From Escherichia coli (lineage in GTDB: Bacteria; Pseudomonadota; Gammaproteobacteria; Enterobacterales; Enterobacteriaceae): a stretch of DNA of 64,000 nt. How positions within the stretch are numbered: position 1 is the stretch's first letter; every line of letters begins with the position of its first letter. Of the stretch, positions 48,998 through 51,467 are shown piece after piece. The notes beneath the pieces were generated by a model. That model saw only the letters and a list, made by a program, of their open reading frames with translations, ran no database searches and was not told the DNA's origin. The stretch is taken from NCBI RefSeq assembly GCF_041886205.1, contig NZ_CP169029.1. One strand, 5' to 3'. The position numbers and the translations under genes are program-made.

Positions 48998-49690
48998 TTA
49001 ACGCGTTCGCTGCGAAAGCACCTGCTGCTTATCCAGCTTTTGCACCAGCGGCTGCACCACCTTATCCCCATGCTGACCAAAGTATTGATACAGCGTATCG
49101 GACGCACTTTTGGTCAGCACCATAATCTCAATGCGTCGGTTGCCCGCGCTTTGCGGATTTTTGGAATCCAGCAGCATCTGGTCCGCCATCGCGCTCACCT
49201 GCATCACTTTATCTTCCGGCATTCCTGCCTCTTCCAGCACCCGACGAGCCGAAAGCGCGCGGTCACCCGAAAGGTTCCAGTTGTTGTAGATATTATTTTT
49301 GTAGGCCATCGCATCGGTATGCCCGGTAATAATAATTTTGTTATCGAGCGAGTCGAAAACTGGCGCGAGCTCCACCAGCAGCGTTTTAAAGAACGGCATA
49401 ATCTGCGCGCTACCGCGTTCGAACATATTGCGATTCTGGTCGTCTTTAATCAGCACGCGTAATCCCTGCGGGACAATCTCCATCTCCAGATTCGCTTCCA
49501 TATGCGCATCACGGGCAATGGTGTTGATACTGGTTGCCAGCTCGCCAAGCTCGGTGGCGGATTTCATCTTCAGCAGCGCCGTTTTCTCGTTGACGTCGCG
49601 CGCTTTTTTCTCCGTCTCTTCCGGCACCGCCACGGTGGCAGGTTTTGGCGGATGAGACGGGCTGATTTTATTTAACGGCGACAACCCGCC
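48998..49690 (-). pseudogene. lafU: Flag-2 remnant: MotB-like lafU, 5'-truncated (upper boundary approximate)
   Basis: C-terminal OmpA-like domain (IIITGHTDA..., NRRIEIMVL); no N-terminal TM segment; overlaps the lfhA-fragment frame at a deletion junction. Confidence 0.7.
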
Positions 49691-49760
49691 GCCATTGAAA
49701 ATCGACTGCCCGTGCAGCGCGGCGATAATGCTTTCACGCTCGGATTTACTGACGCTGTTG

Positions 49761-51467
49761 ACAATCAACTTTATCGTCGTCACCAAAGGGGCCGAGCGTA
49801 TTTCCGAGGTTTCTGCCCGCTTTACCCTGGACGCGATGCCCGGTAAGCAGATGGCGATTGATGCCGATCTTAACGCCGGATTGATCAACCAGGCGCAGGC
49901 GCAATCCCGGCGTAAAGATGTTGCCAGCGAGGCCGATTTCTACGGCGCGATGGACGGGGCATCGAAGTTTGTGCGCGGAGACGCCATCGCCGGGATGATG
50001 ATTCTGGCGATCAACCTGATCGGCGGCGTCTGTATCGGCATCTTCAAATACAACCTGAGCGCCGACGCCGCCTTCCAGCAATACGTGCTGATGACCATCG
50101 GCGACGGCCTGGTGGCGCAGATCCCTTCCCTGCTGCTCTCCACCGCGGCGGCGATTATTGTCACCCGCGTCAGCGACAACGGCGATATTGCCCATGACGT
50201 GCGCCACCAGCTGCTGGCAAGCCCGTCGGTGCTCTACACCGCTACCGGGATTATGTTTGTGCTGGCGGTGGTGCCGGGGATGCCGCACCTGCCGTTTTTG
50301 CTGTTCAGCGCCCTGCTTGGCTTTACCGGCTGGCGGATGAGCAAGCGCCCACAGGCGGCGGAGGCGGAAGAGAAAAGCCTCGAAACGCTGACCCGCACCA
50401 TCACTGAAACCAGTGAGCAACAGGTCAGTTGGGAGACGATACCGCTGATCGAGCCCATCAGCTTAAGCCTGGGCTACAAGCTGGTAGCGCTGGTGGATAA
50501 AGCCCAGGGCAACCCGCTCACCCAGCGAATTCGCGGCGTGCGGCAGGTGATTTCTGACGGTAACGGCGTGCTGCTGCCTGAGATCCGCATTCGGGAAAAC
50601 TTCCGCCTCAAGCCCAGCCAGTACGCTATTTTCATCAACGGCATTAAGGCTGATGAAGCGGATATTCCGGCGGATAAACTGATGGCCCTGCCCTCCAGCG
50701 AAACCTACGGCGAGATTGACGGCGTGCTGGGGAACGACCCGGCGTACGGAATGCCGGTCACCTGGATCCAGCCCGCACAGAAAGCGAAGGCGCTGAATAT
50801 GGGGTATCAGGTGATCGACAGCGCCAGCGTGATTGCCACGCATGTGAATAAGATTGTGCGTAGCTATATTCCTGATTTATTTAACTATGACGATATTACG
50901 CAGTTGCATAACCGTTTGTCGTCGATGGCACCGCGCCTGGCGGAAGATTTAAGCGCGGCGCTGAATTACAGCCAGTTGCTGAAAGTGTACCGCGCGCTGC
51001 TGACCGAAGGCGTTTCCCTGCGCGATATCGTCACCATTGCCACCGTGCTGGTCGCCAGTAGCGCGGTGACCAAAGATCATATTCTGCTGGCAGCTGATGT
51101 GCGCCTGGCGCTGCGGCGAAGCATTACCCATCCGTTCGTTCGCAAGCAGGAGCTGACGGTGTATACGCTGAATAATGAGCTGGAAAATCTGCTGACCAAC
51201 GTGGTGAATCAGGCGCAACAGGGCGGGAAAGTGATGCTCGACAGCGTGCCGGTCGATCCGAATATGCTCAACCAGTTCCAGAGTACGATGCCGCAGGTAA
51301 AAGAGCAGATGAAAGCGGCGGGGAAAGATCCGGTGCTGCTGGTGCCGCCTCAGCTGCGCCCTTTGCTGGCGCGTTATGCAAGGTTGTTTGCGCCGGGGCT
51401 GCATGTGCTGTCGTATAACGAAGTGCCGGACGAGCTGGAGTTGAAGATAATGGGGGCGTTGATGTAA
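49761..51467 (+). pseudogene. lfhA: Flag-2 remnant: FlhA-like lfhA, 5'-truncated (lower boundary approximate)
   Basis: Homology to FlhA begins at INFIVVTKGAERISEVSARFTLDAMPGKQMAIDADLNAGLI; N-terminal membrane domain missing. Confidence 0.75.

What the first reader, a model, noticed from the sequence alone, without database searches (positions are those of the whole stretch)
48998..51467. Flag-2 (lateral flagella) locus reduced to two overlapping 5'-truncated gene fragments
A MotB-like C-terminal fragment (minus strand) and an FlhA-like C-terminal fragment (plus strand) have open frames that overlap by about 190 nt at what must be the deletion junction; neither retains its N-terminal membrane domain. 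This is the scar of loss of a large flagellar cluster.
Basis: partly seen in the sequence, partly recalled or inferred. Interest (0 to 1): 0.3.

Follow-up and report, generated by a model that had tools for sequence, protein, structure and literature searches.

The report
Flag-2 flagellar cluster deletion scar
This is the well-known leftover of a lost second flagellar system in E. coli (tail ends of lfhA/fhiA and lafU/mbhA fused head to head), ordinary in itself, although the same nucleotide-exact junction also occurs in at least five other genera, which a single accidental deletion does not easily explain.

Summary
The window is E. coli chromosome. Positions 48998-51467 hold the 3' 769 nt of lafU (minus strand) joined to the 3' 1704 nt of lfhA (plus strand), at a shared ATC at 49764-49766. 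Intact strains carry 35.1-38.1 kb (40 whole genes) between these points, at the same dinB/rayT locus. The 194-nt "overlap" is only each frame reading on into the antisense of the other gene. LafU loses residues 1-52, including its only membrane helix. LfhA loses residues 1-130 but keeps four hydrophobic segments and the cytoplasmic domain. K-12 has the same junction (fhiA/mbhA; Ren 2005, cited in PMC6993521), as do 4071 of 5426 complete E. coli genomes.

Unexpected extras. The same AT junction occurs in E. albertii, Citrobacter, Kluyvera, Atlantibacter, an unnamed enterobacterium and Ewingella (Yersiniaceae). In each case the flanks match intact alleles of the same species up to the junction. 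In E. coli, scar and intact alleles share haplotypes: one pair has no real differences in 21.6 kb. Fragment dN/dS is 0.03-0.04, and 45 of 45 sampled scars have no indels, though frameshift and nonsense alleles exist. A single origin with recombination and a recurrent precise excision both remain open.

The parts
48998..49766 (-). lafU (mbhA) 3' fragment: codons 53-307 plus stop of a MotB-like lateral-flagellar stator protein. The OmpA-like peptidoglycan-binding domain is kept. The cytoplasmic N-terminus, the membrane helix and the plug region are lost.
   Evidence: Pfam OmpA hit. 97.8% identical to L003 10598-11464. Residue mapping. Truncated LafU proteins lack PF13677 (MotB_plug), which the intact ones carry.
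49764..49766 (.). Deletion junction: the ATC shared by both parent sequences. It sits within an imperfect 9-of-12 match, CTGTTGACAATC (lafU side) against CTGATGATCATC (lfhA side).
   Evidence: Three-way alignment of the window, the lafU side and the lfhA side of the intact locus, and K-12. All 10 fetched scar alleles show the same geometry.
49764..51467 (+). lfhA (fhiA) 3' fragment: codons 131-697 plus stop of the FlhA-type export-gate protein. The first 130 residues are lost.
   Evidence: Pfam FHIPEP, profile positions 99-656 of 657. 94.3% identical to L003 46775-48627. PGAP note 'missing N-terminus'.
49695..49763 (+). Mechanical upstream extension of the lfhA frame. It is encoded by the antisense of lafU and is not lfhA sequence.
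   Evidence: The N-terminus MKIDCPCSAAIMLSRSDLLTLLT has no counterpart in intact LfhA.
49767..49888 (-). Mechanical upstream extension of the lafU frame. It is encoded by the antisense of lfhA and includes the GTG at 49783 that PGAP uses as the start of the 261-aa 'LafU'.
   Evidence: The N-terminus (V/M)TTIKL is the antisense of lfhA NFIVVT.
47872..48927 (-). dinB (DNA polymerase IV), the conserved left flank of the Flag-2 locus.
   Evidence: Annotation of the identical RefSeq record.
51467..51819 (.). Array of about 101-nt REP/BIME-type units directly after the lfhA stop. A further copy lies at 52368-52460, on the other side of rayT.
   Evidence: the repeat finder families D1 and D2.
51785..52282 (-). 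rayT (REP-associated tyrosine transposase), the right flank in this strain.
   Evidence: Annotation.

Best explanation
The region is the canonical 'Flag-2 negative' allele of the E. coli dinB-yafL locus. The whole lateral-flagella cluster has been removed: 40 genes plus the 5' ends of the two outermost, outward-facing genes, 35-38 kb in comparator strains. The break runs between lafU codon 52/53 and lfhA codon 130/131, and the ends are joined at a 2-3-nt microhomology, AT(C). What remains are two promoterless gene tails with no demonstrated function. LafU has lost the helix and aspartate that a stator needs. LfhA has lost the first third of its membrane domain. The deletion did not happen in this strain. 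The allele was inherited, and it coexists in the species with the intact allele (about 75% to 25% of complete genomes). Shown here: the identity of the fragments, the exact junction, what was lost, the prevalence, and allelism with the intact cluster. Inferred: non-functionality, and that the allele moves between lineages by exchange with the intact allele. How the junction first arose, once or repeatedly, is not settled (see rivals).
For: ORFs and Pfam domains. The window is 100% identical to NZ_AP045833.1, with PGAP calling FlhA 'incomplete, missing N-terminus'. An intact cluster lies at the same locus in L003, L017, L018 and L019, with 35,322, 38,138, 37,316 and 35,081 bp between the same two points. 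The junction alignment is identical in K-12. The scar is in 4071 of 5426 genomes, and about 1349 others match as two separate places. Lost and retained residues are mapped. The promoter scan is at chance level. Real decay alleles exist: a 1-nt deletion at window-equivalent 51221 (a protein cluster of 794 member sequences), a stop at LfhA residue 535 (581 member sequences), in-frame internal deletions and duplications, and a 22-nt frameshifting deletion in the E. albertii type strain. Literature: PMC6993521 and PMC3032704 describe exactly this deletion, citing Ren et al. 2005. PMC5369007 reports fragments of about 1700 bp and 769 bp in an ST131 strain.
Against: The fragments look better preserved than old pseudogenes should. 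dN/dS among scar alleles is 0.030 (lfhA) and 0.043 (lafU), the same as among intact alleles. No indel was found in 45 of 45 evenly sampled scars, in each of two searches, and no stop in 10 of 10 fetched scars. fhiA mRNA was measurable by qRT-PCR in O157:H7 (PMC6863780). That paper treats it as an ordinary flagellar gene and offers no test of function.
Confidence: 0.88

Rival explanations
1. Origin rival A: the junction is produced repeatedly. A sequence-directed, precise excision of the whole cluster at one fixed AT dinucleotide, or a reversible insertion and excision of the cluster as a cassette, operates in many Enterobacterales. Scars are therefore mostly young derivatives of the local intact allele.
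For: The same junction, exact to the nucleotide, occurs in E. coli, E. albertii, Citrobacter spp., Kluyvera ascorbata, Atlantibacter subterranea, an H16N7-like enterobacterium and Ewingella americana/allii of the Yersiniaceae. Flanks match intact alleles of the same species up to the junction. Kluyvera is 98.75% identical over 4335 nt starting at the junction, and Atlantibacter 98.9-99.2%. The Ewingella scar LafU is, by visual comparison of the printed sequences, identical in its retained part to an intact LafU. In Atlantibacter the bases on both sides of the AT are the species' own variants. The interior of the cluster diverges between genera about as much as its flanks do, which points to vertical inheritance. 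In E. coli no founder haplotype extends beyond -68..+8, and scar-scar pairs are no more alike near the junction than scar-intact pairs. CMZE063 (scar) and M70 (intact) show no mismatch in 9,790 nt on the left. Over 11,848 nt on the right there are three mismatches. All three lie within the first 1,985 nt and are inferred to come from the alignment running 9 nt past the junction, by analogy with the K-12 comparison. By a rough extrapolation from evenly spaced result rows, roughly 150-180 scar and 360 intact genomes share that haplotype, and the next nearest haplotype is 97.3%. De Maayer 2020 (PMC6993521) notes that the truncated copies occur mainly in taxa that also hold complete clusters.
Against: No mechanism was found. 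No recombinase is annotated in the cluster. There are no significant direct or inverted repeats between the termini of the deleted segment. The 9-bp-stem hairpin at the E. coli lafU end point is broken in Kluyvera and in strain 4FM. The site sequences are poorly conserved in Ewingella. No circle-junction sequence turned up in metagenome contigs, which is a weak negative.
Confidence: 0.35
2. Origin rival B: one ancient accidental deletion. The presence/absence polymorphism has persisted or been passed on since then. Homologous recombination between scar and intact chromosomes, unable to cross the 35-kb heterology, keeps overwriting the flanks up to the junction. This erases linkage and keeps the fragments 'fresh'.
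For: A 2-3-nt microhomology junction is very unlikely to recur by chance, which favours a single origin. The flanks are clearly mosaic, with blocks of several hundred nt of deeply diverged haplotypes (dS 0.21) shared between scar and intact alleles. K-12 and an intact strain differ at a single position over 2.6 kb on the lfhA side, yet on the lafU side differences start 69 nt from the junction. That places a recombination end point within 69 nt of the junction. The ST131 literature lists this locus among recombination-associated regions (PMC4637896).
Against: It needs both alleles to have been carried through the split of two families, or transfer between genera whose flanks are only about 71-86% identical. 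Either route must be followed by homogenisation to within 1 nt of the junction in every genus. A rough mutation-against-conversion balance at commonly cited E. coli recombination rates (my own calculation, not a tool result) predicts several disabling lesions per scar allele. Observed disruption is low: none of the 10 fetched scars carries a stop, and none of the 45 sampled has an indel.
Confidence: 0.3
3. Function rival: the two truncated ORFs are real genes kept by purifying selection, for example a soluble or partly membrane-anchored FlhA C-domain and a MotB C-domain with a new role.
For: dN/dS is 0.03-0.04. Atlantibacter scar against scar gives S=15, N=0 in lfhA, and Kluyvera lafU gives S=11, N=1. 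ORFs are open in every genus examined. The number of distinct LafU protein variants per genome is no higher for scars than for intact alleles, a crude count.
Against: There are sizeable lineages with a frameshift or a nonsense codon, and a frameshift in E. albertii. No start codon is conserved across genera: the candidate Met lies 12, 25 or 31 codons upstream of the junction, and some gene calls start just after it. Promoter-like sites are at chance level. LafU without a helix or signal peptide could not reach the periplasm, where its domain acts (established knowledge of the MotB/OmpA family). Scars are reported mainly where intact clusters also exist (PMC6993521), which is not what an independent gene would show. 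Singleton variants in scars are richer in amino-acid changes (N13:S50) than shared variants (N16:S140).
Confidence: 0.1

Closest known systems
E. coli K-12 fhiA (lfhA) / mbhA (lafU) pseudogene pair, the Flag-2 deletion described by Ren, Beatson, Parkhill and Pallen 2005 (J Bacteriol 187:1430; not held, cited in PMC6993521 and PMC3032704)
   Same: Same locus (dinB on one side, rayT/yafL on the other). Same divergent orientation, same junction to the nucleotide, and the same fragment lengths of 769 nt and 1704 nt.
   Different: Allelic sequence only: 95.3% identity over 2.7 kb. This strain also lacks the neighbouring yafNO and dinJ-yafQ modules and has intact rtcB-prfH.
Intact Flag-2 cluster of E. 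coli (strain 042, ST131 EC958, strain W; here L003, L017, L018, L019)
   Same: The fragments are the 3' parts of its two terminal genes. The flanks are collinear, and in one clone pair no real differences were found.
   Different: 40 genes and the 5' ends of lfhA and lafU are absent from the window.
Lateral flagellar (laf) systems of Vibrio parahaemolyticus and Aeromonas hydrophila
   Same: Homologous gene set and operon layout, with flhA last in the fliM...flhBA operon and motB last in the motAB operon (established knowledge; PMC3032704).
   Different: Those systems are complete and shown to work. Here only two gene tails remain. Aeromonas LfhA is 55% identical.
Excisable chromosomal elements that split or rebuild genes (the B. 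subtilis skin element in sigK, the Anabaena nifD and fdxN elements); recalled from memory, as an analogy for the novel reading only
   Same: A large segment whose removal leaves a nucleotide-exact junction inside coding sequence.
   Different: Those elements encode their own recombinase and have defined att sites. No recombinase or conserved site was found here. Excision there restores a gene, whereas here it destroys two.

Membership tests
Flag-2 lfhA-lafU deletion allele (K-12 type) | FlhA-family fragment that lacks its N-terminus | tested here: met
   Pfam FHIPEP, profile positions 99-656 of 657. Aligns to intact lfhA from codon 131.
Flag-2 lfhA-lafU deletion allele (K-12 type) | MotB-family fragment that lacks its N-terminus, divergently adjacent to the FlhA fragment | tested here: met
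   OmpA domain only. Aligns to intact lafU nt 156-924.
Flag-2 lfhA-lafU deletion allele (K-12 type) | Junction identical to that of K-12 | tested here: met
   Direct alignment with K-12 locus L002. All 10 scar alleles have the same 769 + 1704 nt geometry.
Flag-2 lfhA-lafU deletion allele (K-12 type) | Position between dinB and rayT/yafL, where other strains carry the complete cluster | tested here: met
   Annotations.
FlhA / FHIPEP export-gate proteins (functional member) | Complete N-terminal membrane domain (eight helices in Salmonella FlhA, established knowledge) plus the C-terminal cytoplasmic domain | tested here: not met
   Residues 1-130 are absent. The hydrophobic block 7-66 is lost and block 108-143 is cut.
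MotB stator proteins (functional member) | Single membrane helix with the conserved aspartate, a plug segment, and an OmpA-like domain | tested here: not met
   Residues 1-52, including FADF and helix 35-54, are absent. There is no PF13677 hit, and truncated LafU clusters lack PF13677.
Pseudogene (non-functional remnant) | Relaxed constraint: disabling mutations and raised dN/dS | tested here: inconclusive
   Disabling alleles exist. However, dN/dS is 0.03-0.04, and no indel was found in any of the 45 scars sampled in each of two searches.
Site-specific excisable element | An encoded or associated recombinase, and conserved att-like sites at both ends | tested here: not met
   No recombinase is annotated in four clusters. 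There are no terminal repeats. The end-point hairpin is not conserved.
Site-specific excisable element | A detectable excised circle or a measurable excision rate | not testable with these tools
   The only test possible was an exact-pattern scan of metagenome contigs for the predicted circle junction. It gave 0 hits, which is uninformative.

The most novel reading that the evidence does not exclude
The lfhA/lafU junction is not a one-off accident. The whole 35-38-kb Flag-2 cluster is lost, and perhaps regained, at one fixed AT dinucleotide by an unrecognised, sequence-directed process. That process would be shared by Enterobacteriaceae and Yersiniaceae. It would explain three things: why the identical scar sits on each species' own flanks in at least six genera, why no founder haplotype exists in E. 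coli, and why scar fragments look only about 5e-4 substitutions per site 'old' (my rough estimate, from the excess of amino-acid-changing singletons and from the share of disrupted alleles).
Probability: 0.3. Interest if true: 0.8.

Novelty: already known. Interest (0 to 1): 0.4.

Why it matters
In itself it is a textbook pseudogene pair, useful mainly as a marker of Flag-2-negative E. coli. It deserves a second thought because of its population genetics. A junction with only 2-3 nt of microhomology is shared, nucleotide for nucleotide, across two bacterial families. It always sits on flanks that match intact alleles of the same species. Within one E. coli clone the scar and the intact cluster differ by nothing but the 38-kb cluster. 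If the junction recurs, a new precise-excision mechanism for a large chromosomal gene cluster awaits discovery. If it arose once, it is an unusually long-lived presence/absence polymorphism. It would then also be a clean natural example of recombination tracts that stop at a large heterology and so keep 'dead' gene fragments looking alive. Either reading can be tested with existing strains such as ST131, E. coli W and Kluyvera.

Tried and rejected
1. Hairpin at the lafU end point. In E. coli the sequence is TGACGCTGT-TGACAATCC-ACAGCGTCA, with DNA folding energy of -12 to -14 kcal/mol for the 55-nt stretch around it. I rejected it as a general cause because synonymous changes break the stem in Kluyvera (CTG to TTA) and in E. 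coli 4FM, with no compensating change.
2. Direct or inverted repeats between the two ends of the deleted segment, or between the retained flanks. None scored above shuffled controls.
3. A recombinase inside the cluster. None is annotated in four intact clusters.
4. The predicted excised-circle junction (lfhA 5' part joined to lafU 5' part). An exact-pattern scan of metagenome contigs gave 0 hits.
5. A new promoter created at the junction. Promoter-like sites are at chance level, and by eye the TTGACA at the junction has no usable -10 hexamer 16-18 nt downstream.
6. A founder haplotype around the junction in E. coli. None extends beyond -68..+8.
7. Recent import of the cluster between genera. 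The interior and the flanks diverge to a similar degree, and there is no consistent identity step at the end points among E. coli intact alleles.
8. The Ewingella LafU fragment as a decayed old scar. Its unusual residues are also present in intact Ewingella LafU.
9. Plasmid-borne copies as vehicles for spread. The hits look like K-12 F' plasmids that carry the dinB region, plus chromosome-sized records filed as plasmids.
10. The primary paper (PMC545627) is not held, so its statements are taken from papers that cite it.
The cross-genus cases came instead from the protein searches.
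Full report
WHAT IS THERE. The window is E. coli chromosome. Positions 48900-51600 are 100% identical to NZ_AP045833.1 (strain wlxctx60). The local gene order is prfH, rtcB-like, yafP, dinB, lafU fragment, lfhA fragment, REP array, rayT, yafL, dpaA(yafK), yafJ.

One runs 48998-49888 on the minus strand (296 aa) and the other 49695-51467 on the plus strand (590 aa). They overlap by 194 nt. Pfam finds only an OmpA domain in the first. In the second it finds FHIPEP starting at profile position 99 of 657.

THE JUNCTION. I fetched an E. coli chromosome that carries the complete cluster between dinB and rayT (L003, NZ_LR882973.1). It has 42 annotated genes from lafU to flhA.
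- Window 48900-49766 aligns to the 3' 769 nt of its lafU plus the dinB spacer.
- Window 49755-51600 aligns to its flhA/lfhA from nt 382.
- Base by base, the lafU-side match ends at 49766 and the exact lfhA-side match starts at 49764. The junction is therefore the shared ATC at 49764-49766.
- The ATC sits within an imperfect 9-of-12 repeat (CTGTTGACAATC against CTGATGATCATC).
- The missing segment is 35,322 bp relative to L003. It is 38,138, 37,316 and 35,081 bp relative to three other intact strains.

The ORF 'overlap' is an artefact of mechanical ORF calling. Upstream of the junction each frame simply stays open through the antisense of the other gene. PGAP's 261-aa 'LafU' starts at a GTG (49783) that lies in antisense lfhA sequence.

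WHAT WAS LOST. LafU keeps residues 53-307. It loses the cytoplasmic N-terminus and its only hydrophobic helix (residues 35-54, which contain the FADF aspartate). LfhA keeps residues 131-697. It loses the hydrophobic block 7-66 and is cut inside block 108-143. It keeps the conserved loop (TKGAERISEV...), the hydrophobic segments between 202 and 315, and the whole cytoplasmic domain. Promoter-like sites are no more frequent than in shuffled sequence.

IT IS KNOWN. K-12 has the same junction. A single aligned place covers at least 80% of the 2470-nt scar in 4071 of 5426 complete E. coli genomes. About 1349 others match as two separate places.

De Maayer et al. 2020 (PMC6993521) summarise earlier work by Ren et al. 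2005. They describe a deletion within the lfhA and lafU reading frames in many Escherichia and Shigella, with direct repeats at its ends. They report truncated copies in 76 of 100 E. coli and in 531 of 4028 Enterobacterales strains. PMC3032704 calls fhiA and mbhA the two terminal remnants in K-12 and B. PMC5369007 reports fragments of about 1700 bp and 769 bp in an ST131 strain. The primary paper is not held.

UNEXPECTED FEATURES IN E. COLI. I fetched 10 scar alleles, spanning 93-100% identity to the window, and 4-6 intact alleles.
- All scars have the same geometry, with no indel and no internal stop.
- Two searches each listed 45 evenly spaced scar records. Every one had equal query and record spans, so none has an indel in 2470 nt.
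- Nei-Gojobori dN/dS for the lfhA fragment is 0.030 for scar-scar, intact-intact and scar-intact pairs alike, with dS about 0.21. For lafU it is 0.043 for scar-scar pairs.
- Scar and intact alleles are interleaved. K-12 differs from the intact L003 at 1 of 1704 lfhA positions, yet on the lafU side differences begin 69 nt from the junction.
- TK3889 (scar) matches O8:H28 (intact) over the first 734 nt except at one site.
- CMZE063 (scar) equals M70 (intact) at all 337 variable sites.
- Over wider flanks that last pair has 0 mismatches in 9,790 nt on the left. On the right there are three in 11,848 nt. All three lie within the first 1,985 nt, and I infer that they come from the alignment running 9 nt past the junction, as it did in the K-12 comparison.
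- Extrapolating from evenly spaced result rows, roughly 150-180 scar genomes and 360 intact genomes carry this haplotype, probably ST131 given the literature. The next nearest haplotype is 97.3%.
- No founder haplotype surrounds the junction. Scar-scar pairs are identical only from -68 to +8, no further than scar-intact or intact-intact pairs. Six different haplotypes occur among the 10 scars within 66 nt.
- The flanks are mosaics of blocks several hundred nt long.

THE SAME JUNCTION IN OTHER GENERA. The E. albertii type strain has the identical junction and a 22-nt frameshifting deletion in the lfhA fragment. Protein searches then turned up truncated LfhA ORFs whose N-termini are antisense-lafU sequence fused at the same residue (...LLT|INFIVVTKGAER). 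They also turned up truncated LafU ORFs that begin with antisense-lfhA sequence (TTIKL|IVNSVSK). These come from:
- Citrobacter (gillenii, amalonaticus and unnamed species);
- Kluyvera (ascorbata and an unnamed species);
- Atlantibacter subterranea;
- a lineage 99% identical to 'Enterobacteriaceae bacterium H16N7';
- Ewingella americana and E. allii, which belong to the Yersiniaceae.

Contig DNA confirms the junction at nucleotide level in every case. The pattern is lafU side, then AT(C/T), then AACTT(T/C) of lfhA.

In Kluyvera, Atlantibacter and Ewingella an intact allele of the same species exists at the same locus with near-identical flanks.
- The Kluyvera scar and intact allele are 98.75% identical over 4335 nt, starting exactly at the junction.
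- Atlantibacter scar and intact alleles are 98.9-99.2% identical, the same as two scar strains compared with each other.
- The Ewingella scar LafU is, by visual comparison of the printed sequences, identical in its retained part to an intact LafU.
- In Atlantibacter the bases immediately on either side of the AT are that species' own synonymous variants (ATT in lfhA, ATC in lafU).
- Polymorphism is again almost all synonymous. Atlantibacter scar against scar gives S=15, N=0 in lfhA. Kluyvera lafU gives S=11, N=1.
- Between genera, the interior of the cluster (lafT, lfhB, the deleted 5' parts) is about as diverged as the retained parts. The intact cluster has therefore been inherited vertically rather than recently exchanged.

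ARE THE FRAGMENTS FUNCTIONAL? Probably not.
- Disabling alleles are real and not rare. They include a 1-nt deletion at window-equivalent 51221 (a protein cluster of 794 member sequences) and a stop at LfhA residue 535 (581 member sequences). There are also many in-frame internal deletions and duplications, and the E. albertii frameshift.
- No start codon is conserved across genera.
- LafU without a helix or signal peptide cannot reach the periplasm.
- Singleton variants in scars are richer in amino-acid changes (13:50) than shared variants (16:140).
- fhiA mRNA has been measured in O157:H7 (PMC6863780), but without any test of function.

From the excess of amino-acid-changing singletons, and from a rough estimate of about 10% disrupted alleles, I estimate that scar flanks have evolved neutrally for only about 5e-4 substitutions per site on average. 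That is a small fraction of the haplotype depth. This is my own approximate inference, not a tool result.

HOW DID THE JUNCTION ARISE? Two readings remain, and I could not separate them.

(a) One accidental deletion. The resulting presence/absence polymorphism has since been inherited or transferred. Recombination with intact chromosomes cannot cross the heterology, so it rewrites the flanks up to the junction. This fits the mosaic flanks and the K-12 pattern. It also avoids recurrence at a 2-3-nt microhomology. However, it needs the polymorphism to have outlived the split of two families. The alternative is transfer between genera whose flanks are only about 71-86% identical, followed by homogenisation to within 1 nt in every genus.

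(b) Recurrent, sequence-directed precise loss, or reversible insertion, of the cluster. This explains the cross-family pattern, the lack of a founder haplotype, the trace-free clone pair and the apparent youth of scars. No mechanism was found, however:
- no recombinase is annotated;
- there are no terminal repeats;
- the E. coli hairpin at the lafU end is not conserved;
- no circle junction appeared in metagenome contigs.

VERDICT. The finding is correct and already known. As a feature of this window it is an ordinary inherited pseudogene scar. Its population behaviour, with an identical junction across genera on each species' own flanks, is not explained by the usual account and is worth a directed test.

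Noticed in passing
window 47423-48927 and 53217-53507: This strain lacks both toxin-antitoxin pairs that flank the locus in K-12. dinB overlaps yafP directly, so yafN-yafO is absent. Only 291 nt separate yafL from dpaA(yafK), so dinJ-yafQ is absent.
   Followed up: partly
window 45427-47204: prfH and the RtcB-family ligase gene upstream of it are full length here (615 and 1140 nt in the identical RefSeq record). In K-12 both are annotated as truncated pseudogenes.
   Followed up: partly
window 51467-51819 and 52368-52460: Arrays of about 101-nt REP/BIME-type units lie on both sides of rayT. In other E. coli (L010, L011, L015, L016) a hicA-hicB toxin-antitoxin pair follows lfhA at this position instead of the REP array and rayT. 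REP-like sequences also occur at several intergenic sites inside the intact Flag-2 cluster (weak hits).
   Followed up: partly
L023 (E. albertii NBRC 107761) 4654/4655, equivalent to window 50697-50718: The E. albertii type strain carries the same junction plus a 22-nt frameshifting deletion in the lfhA fragment. The last 27 nt or so of its lafU do not align.
   Followed up: yes
L100 (CMZE063, scar) versus L017/L101 (M70, intact): Two E. coli chromosomes show no real differences over 21.6 kb around the locus, yet differ by the presence of the 38,138-bp cluster. The only three mismatches are inferred to be alignment run-over at the junction. Roughly 150-180 scar and 360 intact complete genomes share this flank haplotype, by extrapolation from evenly spaced result rows.
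   Followed up: yes
window 49764-51467 and homologous loci L002-L019: Synonymous divergence among E. coli lfhA alleles (mean dS 0.21) is nearly as large as between E. coli and E. albertii (0.26-0.29). From memory this is well above typical E. coli core genes. The alleles are mosaics of a few deep haplotypes.
   Followed up: partly
L003 11436-11489 (intact lafU end point; retained half = window 49741-49766): In E. coli the lafU-side break point lies in the loop of a perfect 9-bp inverted repeat (TGACGCTGT...ACAGCGTCA). The lfhA-side break point directly follows the 10-nt palindrome GATGATCATC. The inverted repeat is not conserved in Kluyvera.
   Followed up: yes
L003 31341-32270; L018 16428-17341: 'Intact' Flag-2 clusters carry their own lesions. 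The lysine-N-methylase gene has an internal stop in L2_E1649, and lafA is frameshifted in strain 4FM. Presence of the cluster therefore does not mean that it works.
   Followed up: no
plasmid records H102-H108 (e.g. NZ_CP014273.1 4229-6698): The scar, together with dinB, is carried on K-12 plasmids of about 214-242 kb that look like F' factors. Several chromosome-sized records are filed as plasmids in PLSDB.
   Followed up: partly
L111, L112, L114, L115 (Kluyvera, Citrobacter); L102, L113 (Atlantibacter): The dinB-yafP-pepD context on the lafU side and the NlpC/P60 (yafL) context on the lfhA side are conserved in Kluyvera and Citrobacter. In Atlantibacter a short-chain dehydrogenase gene replaces dinB next to lafU, in scar and intact strains alike.
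   Followed up: partly
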